A stretch of 33,350 nt of DNA, from positions 1 to 33,350 of the IMG/VR virus record IMGVR_UViG_3300045988_175829. One strand, 5' to 3'. Within the stretch, counting starts at the first letter, position 1. Each line of letters starts with the position of its first letter. The DNA comes from a virus. Shown here in pieces: positions 1 to 33,350 of this stretch. The position numbers and the translations under genes were made by a program. The notes under the pieces are model-generated. The model did no database searches. It was not told where the DNA came from and worked only from the letters and a program-made list of their open reading frames with translations.

Positions 1-99
1 ATTTTTTTCCCTACAAGCGATAGTTAATATAGTTCAAAAGGAGACCCAAAGATGCCCATCAACGTGGACCAGGCGGTGACCGCGTCGGTCATGGCGAAG
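1..99. repeat. Terminal direct duplication: bases 1-99 are identical to bases 33252-33350, indicating a circularly closed or terminally redundant contig.
   Basis: Direct comparison of the first and last 99 bases of the window shows they are identical, including the RBS and the start of the first gene. Confidence 0.95.
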
Positions 100-29611: not shown

Positions 29612-29650
29612 AAACGTCCCCTGAGCTGCGATAACTCAGGGGACGCATCA
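29612..29650 (-). terminator. Rho-independent terminator downstream of the truncated int gene on the minus strand.
   Basis: Hairpin CCCCTGAG-N9-CTCAGGGG. On the minus strand it is followed by TTTTCTTTTT. Confidence 0.65.
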
Positions 29651-29652
29651 TT

Positions 29653-30369
29653 TCAACTGGCGGAGAGCTGGGGGTAGGTCCCGCGCACCGTGAGCTCGCG
29701 CCGCGCGAGGTCGACGTCCTCCCAGCGCAGGGCGAGCACCTCGCCCTTGCGCAGCCCCTCGCACAGCCCGATCACGCAGATGCGCTCGACGCACGAGCCC
29801 GGCTGCGTCTCGCGCAGGAGGCCCAGCAGGCGCATATGCTCGGCGAAGGTGGTGAGCCACACGACGCCGCGCTCGGGGTCGGCCGCGCCGTCGCCGGGAT
29901 AGGTGTAGCGAAACGACGCGGGGTTCACGGGAATCATGCCCATCTCGACGGCGCACCCCAGCACCGAGGACAGCGTCTCGCGGGCGTTGGTCGCCGTCTT
30001 TCGCGTGGGGCACCCCGATATCATGCGCTGTATGTTCAGCTTGTTTATCTGCTCGAGCTCCATGTTGCCCAGCGCGGGCAGGATGCGCCTCCTGAGGTCG
30101 CGCTCGTAGCCCTGCCTCGTGTTCGCGCGCAGCCCCGCCTTCTGCGGCCAGTACACCTCGTCGACGAACTCCGCCAGCGTGATGCGCGCCGTGACGCGCC
30201 CGCGCAGGCGCTCCTTCTCCATGAGCAGGCGGGTCTCCGCCTTGCGGGCCTGCCCCTTGGTCGGGTACGTCTCCACGCGCCTGTCGCGCGAGCCGTCCCA
30301 CTTGACGCCGACCGTGACGTCGGCCGCCCACTTGCCGCTCTTCAGCTTCCGGACCGCCATGATGTACAA
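29653..30369 (-). pseudogene. int: Tyrosine integrase truncated after 238 aa. The arm-binding (AP2-like) and core-binding domains are present, but the catalytic domain stops just after the first conserved Arg.
   Basis: The sequence runs through the N-terminal arm-type DNA-binding region and the core-binding SAM-like domain. It ends ...GLRKGEVLALRWEDVDLARRELTVRGTYPQLSAS-stop, lacking the HxxR, second Arg, His/Trp and Tyr nucleophile. A stop is followed directly by a terminator. Confidence 0.7.
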
Positions 30370-30456
30370 TCACCTTGCCTTCCGTGTATTCGGTTGGTAC
30401 TTGCATGGCCTCGCGCAGGGTTGCAGCCCGTATGCGCGGGGCCTATTTTCGTCTGC

Positions 30457-31299
30457 CTAGGCCCTCTCGACCCAATCGGGCACCTTGACGCCCGGTCCGG
30501 CGATGAGCAGCTCCCTCCCCACCTTCGCGGACGCCGCGCTGTAGCCCACGTCGATGAGGTACCTGTCGAAGTCCCCGTAGATCTCGGATATGAGCGGCAC
30601 GTTGTCGTAGGTGACCATCCAGGGGAACCCGCAGCCGGCTATCTTCCCGGCGACCTCCCTGTGGTCGTCCTCGGTGTACGAGTTCTCGTACAGGCCCGGC
30701 CCCTTCACGACGTACGGCGGGTCGAAGTTGGCGAACAGCCCGTCCTCTCGCGCGAGGACGGACGAGATGAACTCGCAGGCGTCCATGTTGTACAGGTCGA
30801 TATCCGCCGAGCGGGCGGCGATCGCGCGCACCTTGTCGCAGAGCGGCCCCTTGTTGAAGCGCTCCGAGATGCCGAACTTGCCCTTCTGGGACATGCCTCC
30901 GATCGGGCCGCCGTGCAGTATGCCCGACCTGTTCGCCCTGTTCAGGTAGAAGGCCGCCTTGCCGAGCTCGAGCGATGGGGCGCTGGAGGACAGGTAGACC
31001 TCGCGCTGGGCCTTCCACTCGGGGATGCCCAGCTCCGCGCCCTCGATGAACGCGCACAGCTCGTCCGGGTGGTTCACTATCGCGTCCCACATGCTGTACA
31101 CGGCAGGGTCGATGTCGTTCAGGATCACCCTGGAGACGCGCCCGCGCAGCAGCAGCTTCATGGCCAGGCCCGCCCCGCCGCAGTACGCCTCTGCGTAGGT
31201 GCAGCCCCCGAGGCCGCTCTCGGCGATGATGGAGTCCACCAGCGGGTATATCTTCGATTTGCCGCCGGGGTACCTGATCGGCGTGTATGTCGTCGGCAT
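30457..31299 (-). CDS. Dam-family (D12 class) N6-adenine DNA methyltransferase.
   Basis: 280 aa. N-terminal SAM motif IRYPGGKSK and catalytic motif FDPPY are present. RBS GAGGAGGTG. Confidence 0.85.
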   Translation of the reverse strand: MPTTYTPIRYPGGKSKIYPLVDSIIAESGLGGCTYAEAYCGGAGLAMKLLLRGRVSRVILNDIDPAVYSMWDAIVNHPDELCAFIEGAELGIPEWKAQREVYLSSSAPSLELGKAAFYLNRANRSGILHGGPIGGMSQKGKFGISERFNKGPLCDKVRAIAARSADIDLYNMDACEFISSVLAREDGLFANFDPPYVVKGPGLYENSYTEDDHREVAGKIAGCGFPWMVTYDNVPLISEIYGDFDRYLIDVGYSAASAKVGRELLIAGPGVKVPDWVERA

Positions 31300-31332
31300 C
31301 GGCGCACCTCCTCTCGCTGTGCAGCTCCTAGG

Positions 31333-32979
31333 TTACTCGCTGTCGGCCCTCTTGGCCATAGGCAAGATCTGAGCGCCGACGCGCTTCGCCACGGTGTTGT
31401 ACGCCCTCATGAAATCCCCGACGAAGGCATCCGCTTCCGAACGGTTGTCGTTCACCCAGTGCTCGACAACTCTGGCCCGCTCGAAGGTGCGCTCATAGCG
31501 TCTAAACCAGTGCTTGTACATATTGCGCTTGGTCTCACCCGGATACATGTCTTCGGGGGCGCTCTCGACCAGATTCTCCCAAGACACCCCAACCGCACCG
31601 AGGTCCTCCCACAGGGGACTTCCATCGGTTGGCCTCTTGGACAAGTAATCCCATAAGAGGCTCTCTGGTCGCTTCTCGCCAGGGAGAAACACTATGTTTC
31701 CTCCGCTTTCTCTTACCGCCGGGGGAATTTTGCCATCTATTTCTTCGACCGTGACGTCACCGTCGAAGACAACGACCTTCTCCCTGAAATACGAAAAGTC
31801 ACCCGCATAGAGACTCGCAATCTGCTTGCACCCAAGGGAAACGTCGAGAAAGTCCGAGTTGTCAACCACCTCAGGACGCAACACGTCGAGCAGCTCCCTT
31901 AGGAGCCAGCGGGCTTCGGCATCCTCGGTGAACACTCCGATACGCCTAGTACTGAGAGCGGGATTGGAGACATAGAGTCCGTTCTCGAGATTTGACCACG
32001 ACGAGTTTCTCATCGACCTAAGCTTGCCGTTGACGCACGACAGGTACGCGACCTCGACGCCTCCGGGCGAGGAGGTGGGATTGTACTGGTTCTTTTCGCT
32101 CAACTCCCTGAGGATCACCGTGCTGTGGGTGGTGAACACGACCTGGAACCCGCACGCTTTCGATTCATCCAGGAGGAGTTTGAGGAGCCTCTGCTGCGCC
32201 GCCGGATGGAGCGACGCGTCGACCTCGTCGATGAGGAGAAGGCCGCCGTCCCAGTCGCCGCCCATCTCGTCCCTCAGCTTCTTGAAGGAGAGGACCGCGA
32301 GGAGAATCTGACCCAAGTTGTCCTGACCGGACGAGTTCGCCATCGGCCCATAGGTGTCAGTCTCGACCCCGGTGCCGCTCTTCAATGAAATCCCCGTGAT
32401 TGACAGGCTGCTCAGGGACCTGATCGGTTCATGGATGCTCAGGATTCTCGAATAGTTCTCGTTGAACCACTCCTCGTCCGCAGCGTCTCCCCACCGACGG
32501 TTCTTCGCCGTGACCGTGATGGAGCCGTTGCCCGGCTCGCGGTCCGGGTCGACCAGCACGTGGCTGCCCTCGGGTATGACGCGGTCCATGCAGTCGCCCT
32601 CGACCTCGAGCGCGAAGGCGCGCGGATGCGAGGCGAGCACCGAGGCCGGCACCTCGACGCGGTGGGAGACCTCCTCCTCGTCGGTCAGCGCGCCGGCGTG
32701 CACGCGCCCGATCGCGAGCAGCGGCACGGTCGCGGAGGACGCGGTCACGGGCATGGCTCCGGAGGGGACGGAAGAGCCCTCGGGTTCATCGTCGATAATC
32801 TCGCCCTTGTTTATTCCAAAGTAGTCGGCAATTGCCTGAACGGCACCCATTCGAGGAACCGCTCGATCATTCTCCCGTTGAGAAACAGCCATCGAAGAAA
32901 CGTCGGCAATCTTGCCAAACTCGTCTTGGGTAAGACCGTGGGCATTTCTGATTCGCCTGATATTCGAACCTATACTCAT
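31333..32979 (-). CDS. CI/LexA-like repressor (XRE HTH plus S24 autopeptidase domain) fused in frame to an OLD-family ATPase C-terminal half and a Toprim nuclease domain.
   Basis: The ATG at 32979 is preferred over the GTG at 32988 because of RBS GAGAGGTG. N-terminal HTH: IRRIRNAHGLTQDEFGKIADVSSMAVSQRE. Linker: VPLLAIGRVHAG-ALTD, LexA-like with Ala-Gly. S24 core: EVEGDCM ... VLVDPDREPGNGSITVTAKN. ABC signature SSGQDNLGQILLAVL, Walker B LLLIDEVDASLHP and H-loop VVFTTHS follow, with no Walker A anywhere. The Toprim-like E in GVFTEDAEA and DxD in VVVFDGD follow those. Confidence 0.75.
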   Translation of the reverse strand: MSIGSNIRRIRNAHGLTQDEFGKIADVSSMAVSQRENDRAVPRMGAVQAIADYFGINKGEIIDDEPEGSSVPSGAMPVTASSATVPLLAIGRVHAGALTDEEEVSHRVEVPASVLASHPRAFALEVEGDCMDRVIPEGSHVLVDPDREPGNGSITVTAKNRRWGDAADEEWFNENYSRILSIHEPIRSLSSLSITGISLKSGTGVETDTYGPMANSSGQDNLGQILLAVLSFKKLRDEMGGDWDGGLLLIDEVDASLHPAAQQRLLKLLLDESKACGFQVVFTTHSTVILRELSEKNQYNPTSSPGGVEVAYLSCVNGKLRSMRNSSWSNLENGLYVSNPALSTRRIGVFTEDAEARWLLRELLDVLRPEVVDNSDFLDVSLGCKQIASLYAGDFSYFREKVVVFDGDVTVEEIDGKIPPAVRESGGNIVFLPGEKRPESLLWDYLSKRPTDGSPLWEDLGAVGVSWENLVESAPEDMYPGETKRNMYKHWFRRYERTFERARVVEHWVNDNRSEADAFVGDFMRAYNTVAKRVGAQILPMAKRADSE

Positions 32980-33083
32980 GGCTTGCACCTCTCGAACGCT
33001 AAATTCTTTTTACATTATAAGAAAAAGGTTCTTTACATTCACTGTATGTTCACCTATAGTCTTAATCATCGAAAGGAGGTCAG
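32980..33083. promoter_or_regulatory. AT-rich divergent switch region between the repressor-fusion gene and the cro-like gene. It holds the two TTTACATT operator-like repeats and the cro-side -35/-10 hexamers.
   Basis: TTTACATT lies at about 33009-33016 and 33032-33039. TTTACA, 17 bp, TATAGT (33032-33060) precedes the cro RBS GAAAGGAGG. The region is about 30% GC, against about 65% for the genome. Confidence 0.55.
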
Positions 33084-33278
33084 ATGGAACTCATCGAAGC
33101 TCGCAAAAAGGAGCGATACACGCAGCAGCAAGTGGCTGATTATCTAGGTATATCCCGCATTACATATGCAAAGATGGAAAAGAACCCTGGCGACATCACC
33201 CTTGACAATGCGCGTAAGCTCGCCACTCTTTTCAAGGTTGATGTGCGCGATATTTTTTTCCCTACAAGCGATAGTTAA
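33084..33278 (+). CDS. cro: Cro-like XRE-family HTH regulator.
   Basis: 64 aa with YTQQQVADYLGISRITYAKMEKN as the HTH. It is divergent from the repressor gene and has a strong RBS. Confidence 0.75.
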   Translation: MELIEARKKERYTQQQVADYLGISRITYAKMEKNPGDITLDNARKLATLFKVDVRDIFFPTSDS

Positions 33279-33350
33279 TATAGTTCAAAAGGAGACCCAA
33301 AGATGCCCATCAACGTGGACCAGGCGGTGACCGCGTCGGTCATGGCGAAG

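What the first reader, a model, noticed from the sequence alone, without database searches (positions are those of the whole stretch)
32590..32697. S24 autopeptidase domain carries GDCM instead of GDSM at the nucleophile position
In LexA, lambda CI and UmuD the catalytic Ser lies in a G-D-S-M motif. Here the aligned motif is EVEGDCM, with the Cys codon at 32590-32592. The Ala-Gly scissile bond (codons at 32692-32697) and the downstream Lys in TVTAK are still present.

A Cys nucleophile could still allow self-cleavage, possibly with altered kinetics or redox sensitivity, or it could make the repressor non-inducible. This bears directly on whether the fused nuclease can be released.
Basis: partly seen in the sequence, partly recalled or inferred. 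Interest (0 to 1): 0.55.

Follow-up and report, generated by a model that had tools for sequence, protein, structure and literature searches.

The report
Broken Cys-type phage repressor remnant
The cysteine-for-serine motif is real and is normal for a large, unstudied group of gut-phage repressors, but here the gene is a deletion remnant fused to a broken neighbouring gene, so it has lost half its protease domain and is not expected to cut itself or release anything.

Summary
The GDCM motif (Cys codon 32590-32592) and the Ala-Gly pair (32692-32697) are present and align with LexA Ser119 and Ala84-Gly85.

- **The Lys is not an S24 residue.** The Lys in TVTAK belongs to the neighbouring OLD-type ATPase gene; intact ATPases read GETVDTVTAKNRRW.
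- **The ORF is a one-off deletion fusion.** ORF 31333-32988 joins repressor codons 1-157 in frame to ATPase codons 155-548, at a 1-6 bp microhomology (32513-32518).

The S24 domain therefore matches only Pfam positions 3-72 of 116. It has lost five C-terminal strands and the general-base position. The ATPase part has lost its Walker A motif. An invariant HTH Trp is Arg. The integrase of this circular 33.25-kb Collinsella-type phage is also deleted at its 3' end. The most likely reading is a crippled lysogeny module, not a releasable nuclease.

The Cys itself is not a local mutation. All 120 closest intact 214-aa homologues have Cys, and 69 of 121 representatives clustered at 50% identity do too. 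These carry His-Ala-Gly, Cys and Arg where canonical relatives carry x-Ala-Gly, Ser and Lys. Lineages that lost the Cys also lost Ala-Gly. I found no description of this Cys/Arg/P2-His S24 variant, and it is the lead worth following.

The parts
31333..32988 (-). Chimeric ORF. 551 aa from GTG 32988, or 548 aa from ATG 32979, which is the start used by homologues. It joins the N-terminal 157 codons of a CI-like HTH-S24 repressor to codons 155-548 of an OLD-type ABC-ATPase/TOPRIM gene.
   Evidence: No hit among 5.8 billion proteins covers both halves; the maximum query coverage is 74%.
32803..32961 (-). XRE/Cro-CI type HTH DNA-binding domain of the repressor remnant.
   Evidence: Pfam HTH_3, aa 10-62, E 2.4e-9.
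32875..32877 (-). CGG (Arg) at a position where 119 of 119 aligned homologues have Trp (SQWEN). Probably a damaging substitution in the HTH.
   Evidence: sequence.
32518..32712 (-). Truncated Peptidase_S24 fragment: cleavage-site strand, GDCM loop and the next strand only.
   Evidence: The Pfam S24 match covers profile positions 3-72 of 116, against 3-116 in intact P0121. The AF2 model of P0121 places strands 154-158, 164-171, 176-179, 189-191 and 199-208 beyond the break.
32692..32700 (-). His-Ala-Gly. The Ala-Gly is homologous to the LexA A84-G85 scissile bond. The His at P2 is typical of the Cys-type subfamily.
   Evidence: His is at P2 in 50 of 51 Cys sequences with A-G, and in 0 of 19 Ser sequences with A-G.
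32590..32592 (-). TGC Cys codon of GDCM, homologous to LexA Ser119.
   Evidence: Cys occurs in 120 of 120 close homologues.
32513..32518 (-). Deletion junction CACGGT. The repressor side reads CGCGGT and the ATPase side CACGGT, giving 1-6 bp of microhomology.
   Evidence: The blastn segments 32513..33299 (repressor plus cro, 94%) and 30405..32518 (ATPase plus MTase, 96%) overlap by 6 bp. Three-way alignment.
32503..32505 (-). AAG Lys of TVTAK. This is ATPase residue 159 of intact homologues, not an S24 residue.
31336..32512 (-). ATPase-derived part, equal to residues ~155-548 of intact homologues. It keeps the ABC signature, Walker B and the C-terminal TOPRIM-like region. Walker A (GNNGTGKS, residues 30-37) is missing.
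   Evidence: AAA_21 profile positions 239-303 of 304 only; alignments. The AF2 model of intact P0002 gives OLD nuclease 6p74 and GajA as top fold hits.
30457..31299 (-). D12-class N6-adenine DNA methyltransferase, the partner of the ATPase.
   Evidence: Pfam MethyltransfD12; PADLOC PD-Lambda-5_B, E 2.3e-97. The same gene order is seen in L002 and L007.
33084..33278 (+). Divergent cro-like 64-aa HTH gene. Together with the repressor remnant it forms the immunity switch.
   Evidence: Pfam HTH_3, E 4e-13. The same 64-aa gene lies next to intact repressors in L001, L005 and L006.
29653..30369 (-). Truncated tyrosine integrase. Only residues 1-242 of 368 are present.
   Evidence: tblastn with the L007 integrase. 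Comparison with sibling phages L126 and L097.

Best explanation
**What the ORF is.** It is the in-frame product of a ~0.65-kb deletion in the lysogeny module of a temperate Collinsella-type (Coriobacteriia) phage.
- In relatives the gene order is cro <-> repressor (HTH-S24, 211-222 aa) -> (optional moron) -> OLD-type ATPase (548 aa) -> D12 methyltransferase -> ... -> integrase.
- Here the 3' 57 codons of the repressor, the intergenic spacer and the 5' 154 codons of the ATPase are gone.
- The two genes are joined at a short microhomology.

**Why Cys is there.** GDCM is inherited unchanged from the parent repressor. That repressor belongs to a large subfamily of S24 repressors that carry His-Ala-Gly, Cys and Arg where LexA, CI and UmuD carry x-Ala-Gly, Ser and Lys.

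**What is left in this copy**
- The S24 domain lacks its C-terminal five beta-strands, so it lacks the general-base position and most of the core and dimer interface.
- The ATPase part lacks its P-loop.
- The HTH carries Trp35->Arg at an invariant position.

**Consequence.**
- *Shown:* the anatomy, the homology and the junction.
- *Inferred:* the product can neither dimerise or repress properly, nor self-cleave, nor act as an ATP-driven nuclease. Together with a second deletion that removes the integrase catalytic end and part of attP, this makes the circular 33.25-kb genome a lysogeny-defective derivative.
For: **The ORF has two unrelated halves**
- Domain matches are partial on both sides: S24 profile 3-72 of 116 and AAA_21 profile 239-303 of 304.
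- Homologues fall into two disjoint sets. Intact 548-aa ATPases cover only query residues ~158-551 at up to 98% identity. Intact 214-aa repressors cover residues 4-157 at up to 98%.

**Synteny and junction**
- L007 has repressor, a 4-bp gap, ATPase, MTase, Fic and integrase. L002 has repressor, TM2 gene, ATPase and MTase.
- The DNA breakpoints overlap by 6 bp at 32513-32518.
- The missing halves are nowhere else in the window.
- The junction sequence is absent from IMG/VR and JGI metagenomes, both exact and degenerate.

**TVTAK is an ATPase segment**
- It is residues 155-159 of the ATPase.

**Cys is the family norm**
- Cys is present in 120 of 120 close homologues and in 69 of 121 representatives clustered at 50% identity.
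- The Lys column is Arg in 120 of 120 close homologues.
- The intact homologue models as an S24 fold: pLDDT 88, TM 0.78 to LexA 1jhe.

**Other signs of decay**
- W35R against 119 of 119 Trp.
- Two substitutions at >=90%-conserved ATPase positions, against none in five relatives.
- The integrase is truncated at residue 242 of 368 by a 1,227-bp deletion relative to sibling phages.
- A 99-bp terminal repeat indicates a circular contig.
Against: - The fusion keeps an open frame of 551 codons. This has a 1 in 3 chance, but it also fits a selected product.
- The promoter and cro region are intact, so the chimera is probably expressed.
- The HTH plus linker could still bind operators weakly as a monomer, and an isolated TOPRIM region might keep some nuclease activity.
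- No read-level data were available to prove the junction is not an assembly or amplification chimera.
- The exact parental arrangement (same repressor allele directly upstream of this ATPase allele) was not found. L007 has a different HTH allele.
Confidence: 0.82

Rival explanations
1. First reader's model. The ORF is an intact HTH-S24 autopeptidase with a Cys nucleophile and a retained Lys general base (TVTAK), fused to a nuclease that is released on self-cleavage.
For: GDCM and Ala-Gly are present and homologous to the LexA motifs. The ORF is continuous.
Against: - TVTAK is part of the ATPase.
- The S24 profile is covered only to position 72 of 116.
- Five strands are missing.
- The ATPase lacks residues 1-154, including Walker A.
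- No other protein in the database has this architecture.
Confidence: 0.02
2. The chimera is a selected neo-functional protein. One possibility is an operator-targeted TOPRIM nuclease or regulator. Another is a monomeric, non-inducible weak repressor that gives the phage a new lifestyle.
For: - The fusion is in frame and the promoter region is intact.
- The TOPRIM-like acidic residues (E352/D353, D406-G-D408 in P0002 numbering) lie in the retained part.
- The MTase partner is intact.
Against: - The junction is unique.
- The HTH carries W35R at an invariant Trp.
- There are substitutions at conserved ATPase positions.
- A second, independent deletion lies in the integrase and attP.
- The same ATPase is independently broken by a stop codon in L007-L009. 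This points to decay rather than innovation.
Confidence: 0.06
3. The junction is an assembly or amplification chimera, and the real phage carries intact repressor and ATPase genes.
For: The window is a metagenome-style circular contig with a 99-bp k-mer overlap. Related phages with different immunity cassettes co-occur in similar samples.
Against: - The sequence shared at the join is at most 6 bp. That is far below any assembler k-mer; the contig's own overlap is 99 bp.
- The fusion is in frame.
- A second microhomology deletion and the point substitutions fit a genuinely decayed genome.
Confidence: 0.07
4. About the family rather than this copy. Cys-type S24 domains are catalytically dead dimerisation modules, and induction relies on antirepressors, as in Gifsy-type repressors. 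On this view Cys, Arg and His are structural.
For: - Both canonical dyad residues are replaced.
- Arg is a poor general base (established chemistry).
- Non-cleavable CI-like repressors inactivated by antirepressors are known (PMC3121763).
Against: - Cys, the GxCM frame, Arg and His-Ala-Gly are kept down to ~31-35% identity.
- Within the Arg clade the counts are: Cys with A-G 50, Cys without A-G 17, no Cys with A-G 1, no Cys without A-G 26 (Fisher p 8e-11, not corrected for phylogeny). About 20 parsimony changes are scattered over the tree.
- P0343 independently pairs P2-His with Cys on a Ser/Lys backbone.
- A dead site would not be expected to keep nucleophile and scissile bond together.
Confidence: 0.45

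Closest known systems
LexA / lambda CI / UmuD (MEROPS family S24, Pfam PF00717)
   Same: - N-terminal DNA-binding domain, linker with Ala-Gly, then the G-x-[nucleophile]-M loop.
- The intact homologue P0121 matches the whole PF00717 profile.
- Its model superposes on LexA and CI C-domains with TM 0.7-0.8.
   Different: - The nucleophile is Cys, not Ser.
- The base position is Arg, not Lys.
- P2 is an almost invariant His.
- In the window, the domain is cut after profile position ~72 of 116.
Non-cleavable CI-like prophage repressors inactivated by antirepressors (Gifsy phages; Lemire et al. 2011, PMC3121763)
   Same: These are CI-like repressors that do not use the canonical Ser-Lys autocleavage route. 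This is one possible fate of the Cys/Arg clade, and of its members that lost Cys and A-G.
   Different: No antirepressor dependence was tested here. The Cys clade keeps a scissile-site motif coupled to the Cys, and I am not aware that this is described for Gifsy repressors.
OLD-family ATPase-TOPRIM nucleases (Thermus scotoductus OLD 6p74, Gabija GajA) and the PD-lambda-5 ATPase+methylase prophage defence pair (Vassallo et al. 2022, PMC9519451)
   Same: - Intact relatives of the C-terminal part have ABC-ATPase motifs.
- Their model's best fold hits are OLD and GajA.
- The adjacent MTase matches PD-Lambda-5_B at E 2e-97.
   Different: - The window copy lacks residues 1-154, including Walker A.
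- The top 25 PADLOC hits for the ATPase were NsnB, AriA, PtuA and GajA models, not PD-Lambda-5_A.
- No Pfam TOPRIM hit was found.
Mechanistic analogies from my own knowledge, not verified here: E. coli signal peptidase I S90C (an active thiol variant of a Ser-Lys peptidase in the same clan) and subtilisin H64A rescued by a P2 His in the substrate (substrate-assisted catalysis)
   Same: They show that Cys can replace Ser in a Ser-Lys clan enzyme, and that a P2 His can supply the missing general base.
   Different: Both are engineered cases. Nothing comparable has been shown for natural S24 repressors.

Membership tests
Peptidase S24 self-cleaving repressor (LexA/CI/UmuD type) | Complete S24 beta-barrel catalytic and dimerisation domain | tested here: not met
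   The window matches PF00717 positions 3-72 of 116 only. Intact P0121 matches 3-116. Five C-terminal strands of the model lie beyond the break.
Peptidase S24 self-cleaving repressor (LexA/CI/UmuD type) | [quoted passage not shown] | tested here: met
   A98-G99 (32692-32697) aligns with LexA A84-G85, UmuD C24-G25 and CI A111-G112.
Peptidase S24 self-cleaving repressor (LexA/CI/UmuD type) | Ser nucleophile in G-x-S-M | tested here: not met
   Cys133 aligns with the Ser. The G and M of the motif are kept.
Peptidase S24 self-cleaving repressor (LexA/CI/UmuD type) | Lys general base (LexA K156) | tested here: not met
   This segment is deleted in the window. In intact homologues the column is Arg (120 of 120). 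It has the same spacing as the Lys of the nearest canonical relatives. K162 of the ORF is an ATPase residue.
Peptidase S24 self-cleaving repressor (LexA/CI/UmuD type) | Self-cleavage at high pH or with activated RecA | not testable with these tools
   Needs biochemistry.
CI/Cro-type prophage immunity switch | XRE-type HTH repressor transcribed divergently from a small cro-like HTH gene | tested here: met
   HTH_3 in both genes. The layout is identical next to intact repressors in L001, L005 and L006. The window's HTH carries W35R.
CI/Cro-type prophage immunity switch | C-terminal oligomerisation domain needed for tight operator binding | tested here: not met
   The S24 domain is truncated.
OLD-family ABC-ATPase/TOPRIM nuclease | N-terminal ABC ATPase with Walker A P-loop | tested here: not met
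   GNNGTGKS lies at residues 30-37 of intact P0002. The window retains only residues 155-548.
OLD-family ABC-ATPase/TOPRIM nuclease | ABC signature, Walker B and H-loop segment | tested here: met
   AAA_21 and AAA_15 C-terminal profile ends match aa 198-293.
OLD-family ABC-ATPase/TOPRIM nuclease | C-terminal TOPRIM catalytic domain | tested here: inconclusive
   - No Pfam TOPRIM hit.
- Invariant E352/D353 and D406-G-D408 in the family alignment.
- The top whole-chain fold hits of intact P0002 are OLD 6p74 and GajA, but global TM is only ~0.3.
PD-lambda-5-like ATPase+methyltransferase defence pair | Adjacent D12 methyltransferase of PD-Lambda-5_B type | tested here: met
   PADLOC PDLC04018, E 2.3e-97.

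The most novel reading that the evidence does not exclude
The His-Ala-Gly / Cys / Arg configuration inherited by this remnant may define a natural thiol-dependent branch of S24 autopeptidases, found in prophage repressors of gut Coriobacteriia and their relatives.
- In this reading the Cys is the nucleophile.
- The P2 His of the scissile strand, rather than a Lys, acts as general base or acid. This would be substrate-assisted catalysis.
- The Arg would stabilise the thiolate or the oxyanion.
- Prophage induction could then differ in kinetics, or be sensitive to redox state or thiol modification, in strict anaerobes.
Probability: 0.35. Interest if true: 0.75.

Novelty: new variant of a known kind. 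Interest (0 to 1): 0.45.

Why it matters
**For this window.** The result corrects an attractive but wrong picture. There is no self-releasing repressor-nuclease. The gene is a crippled immunity gene in a phage that has also lost its integrase end. This is a natural example of a temperate gut phage turning lysogeny-defective through two microhomology deletions.

**Beyond the window.** The Cys is a lead to a large, diverse subfamily of CI-like repressors that I could not find described. Both residues of the textbook Ser-Lys dyad are replaced (Cys, Arg), and a His appears next to the scissile bond.
- If these proteins self-cleave, they extend the chemistry of the LexA/CI family.
- They would also change how prophage induction in abundant gut Actinobacteria such as Collinsella should be predicted.
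- If they do not self-cleave, annotation pipelines that call them 'LexA family' peptidases are misleading.

Tried and rejected
**Searches that found nothing useful**
- blastn of 31000-33350 against GenBank phages gave no match.
- Literature searches found no paper on a Cys-type S24 domain. Topics covered: Cys in S24 or LexA-like repressors, S119C, K156R, LexA specificity determinants, and Collinsella prophage induction. One query failed on term length.
- The search for related loci with the diverse alignment A3 failed because no conserved stretch was found. It was repeated with the closer alignment A4.
- The listing of cluster members for 10 diverse Cys-type proteins returned no names or taxa.
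- The best tblastn hits in GenBank phages (Bacillus phages, fecal contigs) are all canonical AAG / GDSM / K. No Cys-type member was seen among the five best hits in that collection, the only ones I translated.

**Where LexA K156 aligns**
- MAFFT without intermediate sequences put it on Met166.
- HMMER against T. maritima LexA put the Lys on Arg168.
- I settled on Arg167. The nearest canonical relatives align without gaps and have identical spacing to the NG and PDS motifs.
- In every version there is no Lys in the segment.

**Explanations considered and dropped**
- Insertion of the ATPase cassette into the repressor, rather than a deletion. The repressor 3' end and the ATPase 5' end are nowhere else in the window.
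- A metal site. Only His94 and Cys130 are invariant candidate ligands.

**Checks not run**
- A structure prediction of the chimera itself. A clean alignment would have needed trimmed sequences, which the tool may refuse.
Full report
**1. The observation**

ORF 31333..32988 on the minus strand is 551 aa from a GTG. Homologues start at the ATG at 32979.
- Codon 133 is TGC (32592-32590) inside EVEGDCM.
- Codons 97-99 are CAC GCC GGC (32700-32692), His-Ala-Gly.
- Pfam finds HTH_3 (aa 10-62, E 2.4e-9), Peptidase_S24 (aa 93-161, E 9.4e-10) and AAA_21/AAA_15 (aa 198-293).
- HMMER against T. maritima LexA (3k2z) puts the Cys on the nucleophile Ser.
- MAFFT alignments with E. coli LexA, UmuD and lambda CI put the Cys on Ser119/Ser60/Ser149, and the Ala-Gly on the known scissile bonds.

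The coordinates and the homology of Cys and Ala-Gly are therefore confirmed.

**2. What the ORF really is**

Both enzyme-domain matches are partial.
- The S24 match covers profile positions 3-72 of 116.
- The AAA_21 match covers positions 239-303 of 304.

A search of 5.8 billion proteins with the whole ORF returned only proteins covering its C-terminal ~72%. These are 548-aa ABC-type ATPases, up to 98% identical, with their own N-terminus and Walker A (GNNGTGKS). Nothing covered both halves.

A search with residues 1-157 returned 214-aa HTH-S24 repressors, up to 98% identical.

In the intact ATPases the sequence reads GETVD-TVTAK-NRRWGDAADEEW, with TVTAK at residues 155-159. In the intact repressors the sequence after NGSI continues AVVETDSYQAVMRRWYRGSSTLMLTADS....

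**3. How the fusion arose**

The gene order in related prophages is informative.
- L007: repressor (211 aa), a 4-bp gap, ATPase, D12 methylase, Fic, tyrosine integrase.
- L002: repressor, TM2-domain gene, ATPase, methylase, then further genes up to a serine recombinase.

At the DNA level, window 32513..33299 matches repressor plus cro of L001 and L005 (94%). Window 30405..32518 matches ATPase plus methylase of L007 (96%). The two segments overlap by 6 bp.

A three-way alignment shows the join at CACGGT. The repressor reads CGCGGT and the ATPase CACGGT, which gives 1-6 bp of microhomology.

Relative to an L007-like layout, about 649 bp are missing. This removes the last 57 repressor codons, the spacer and the first 154 ATPase codons, and it brings the two frames into register. 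The missing pieces are nowhere else in the window, so this is a deletion and not an insertion. The junction sequence, exact or back-translated, is absent from IMG/VR and JGI metagenome contigs. It is a one-off.

**4. Consequences for the protein**

An AlphaFold2 model of the intact homologue P0121 (pLDDT 88) has the S24 fold. Its TM-score is 0.78 to LexA 1jhe, and 0.7-0.8 to the lambda CI and UmuD C-domains.
- The break falls at P0121 residue 154.
- Strands 154-158, 164-171, 176-179, 189-191 and 199-208 are lost.
- The strand carrying the general-base position is among those lost.

The ATPase part lacks residues 1-154, including the P-loop. The intact protein models as an OLD/GajA-like ATPase-TOPRIM protein.

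There are further signs of decay.
- The HTH has Arg (CGG 32877-32875) where 119 of 119 homologues have Trp.
- The ATPase remnant has two substitutions at >=90%-conserved positions, where five close relatives have none.

I infer that the chimera cannot self-cleave, cannot dimerise like a CI repressor and cannot act as an ATP-driven nuclease. This is inference, not measurement.

**5. Context**

The window has an exact 99-bp terminal repeat, so it is a circular contig of ~33.25 kb. It carries terminase and portal genes.

Its integrase keeps only residues 1-242 of 368. Sibling phages L126 and L097 are 94-98% identical in the flanks. Compared with them the window lacks 1,227 bp: the integrase 3' end and the next ORF. 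The deletion ends inside a tRNA-3'-end-like attP core (GGTTCGAATCCCCAGCTCTCCGCCA), again at a 5-bp microhomology (window 29668-29673).

The lysogeny module therefore has two independent deletions plus a likely damaging HTH substitution. This fits a lysogeny-defective derivative of a temperate phage. Close relatives of the repressor lie in Collinsella aerofaciens, C. stercoris, other Coriobacteriaceae, Senegalimassilia and Eggerthella genomes.

The methylase matches PADLOC PD-Lambda-5_B (E 2e-97). PD-lambda-5 was described as a compact prophage RM+Abi system (PMC9519451). In L007-L009 the same ATPase is broken by a premature stop while the methylase is intact.

**6. The Cys is a family trait**

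All 120 listed homologues (60-98% identity) have Cys at this position. They also have an invariant Gly two residues before it and Met after it, and Ala-Gly in 118 of 120.

A full HMMER scan of 1.84 billion cluster representatives gave 8,268 hits. Of the top 150, 121 are near full length, and 69 of those have Cys.

With these intermediates in the alignment, the canonical T-[ILV]-K-R-[FYL] strand aligns without gaps to V-M-R-R-W. LexA K156 therefore corresponds to Arg167 of P0121. That residue is Arg in 120 of 120 close homologues and in 94 of 121 representatives. The spacing to the upstream NG and downstream PDS motifs is identical in P0121 and its nearest Ser/Lys relative P0322. Two other alignments shifted this by one residue, but there is no Lys anywhere in the segment.

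**7. Evidence on whether the Cys form works**

State counts among the 121 representatives:

| Nucleophile / base / scissile pair | Count |
|---|---|
| Cys / Arg / A-G | 50 |
| Cys / Arg / x-G | 7 |
| Cys / Arg / none | 10 |
| Cys / Lys / A-G | 1 |
| Ser / Lys / A-G | 18 |
| Ser / Lys / other | 3 |
| Ser / Arg | 10 (one with A-G) |
| Other nucleophile | 19 (none with A-G) |

- The residue before Ala-Gly (P2) is His in 50 of 51 Cys sequences that have A-G. It is His in 0 of 19 Ser sequences that have A-G.
- I built a neighbour-joining tree without the five key columns. On it, K/R needs 6 parsimony steps, so the Arg clade is nearly monophyletic. The nucleophile needs 20 steps and A-G needs 24, scattered through the Arg clade.
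- Within the Arg clade, Cys and A-G are strongly associated: 50/17/1/26, Fisher p 8e-11, not corrected for phylogeny.
- P0343 sits among Ser/Lys sequences and keeps the Lys, yet has both HAG and GDCM. Its nearest relatives (53-40% identity) all have AAG and GDSM. It is an independent pairing of P2-His with Cys, although it is a single metagenomic sequence.

These patterns are what one would expect if the Cys were used together with the scissile bond and the His. They do not prove catalysis. Arg is a poor general base, and non-cleaving CI-like repressors controlled by antirepressors are known (PMC3121763).

**8. Comparison with what is known, and verdict**

[quoted passage not shown] My literature searches found nothing on a Cys/Arg/His variant. 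The best hits in the GenBank phage collection are all canonical.

The window's gene fails the S24 membership test on three counts: domain completeness, Ser and Lys. It passes on Ala-Gly.

My verdict has two parts.
- The specific feature is an ordinary, if instructive, gene remnant, and the proposed release of a nuclease does not apply.
- The Cys it carries exposes a probably undescribed variant of the S24 family that deserves a biochemical test.

Noticed in passing
window 1-99 and 33252-33350: An exact 99-bp terminal direct repeat. The window is a circular contig, a genome of ~33,251 bp, cut between the cro-like gene and the early genes.
   Followed up: partly
window 29635-30369 (junction 29668-29673): The tyrosine integrase is truncated at residue ~242 of 368. 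Relative to sibling phages L126 and L097, 1,227 bp are missing: the integrase 3' end plus one ORF. The deletion ends inside a tRNA-3'-end-like attP core (GGTTCGAATCCCCAGCTCTCCGCCA) at a CCCAG microhomology. ARAGORN finds no tRNA in the window.
   Followed up: yes
window 32875-32877: Trp35->Arg (TGG->CGG) in the HTH of the repressor remnant, at a position that is Trp in 119 of 119 homologues.
   Followed up: yes
window 30457-31299; loci L007, L008, L009: The D12 methyltransferase matches PD-Lambda-5_B (E 2e-97) and is intact. Its ATPase partner is inactivated in two independent ways: by the N-terminal deletion in the window, and by a premature stop giving 100-aa and 437-aa fragments in L007-L009. 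This looks like repeated loss of the toxic or effector half of an RM-like pair, leaving an orphan methylase.
   Followed up: partly
protein P0343 (JGI contig of 1,099 bp): A singleton repressor on a canonical Ser/Lys backbone that has both His-Ala-Gly and GDCM while keeping the Lys (LKRF). Its nearest relatives (<=53% identity) have AAG, GDSM and LKR.
   Followed up: yes
locus L126 (IMGVR_UViG_3300045988_146123): A sibling phage contig of exactly the same length as the window (33,350 bp). It is 94-98% identical in the flanks but has a different immunity cassette (repressor only ~50% identical to P0121), an intact integrase and no ATPase/methylase pair. The immunity and moron region is mosaic in this phage group.
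   Followed up: partly
window 31400-33300: G+C falls from ~0.65-0.72 in most of the genome to 0.40-0.45 across the cro / HTH / promoter region (32900-33300), and to ~0.53-0.58 in the 3' part of the ATPase remnant. The immunity region differs in composition from the rest of the phage.
   Followed up: no
AF2 model of P0121, residues 91-100: The cleavage-site loop (GRVHAGVLTD) is the only low-confidence part of the S24 domain (block pLDDT ~51). This fits a mobile cleavage loop as in LexA. The position of His94 relative to Cys130 could not be read from the output.
   Followed up: no
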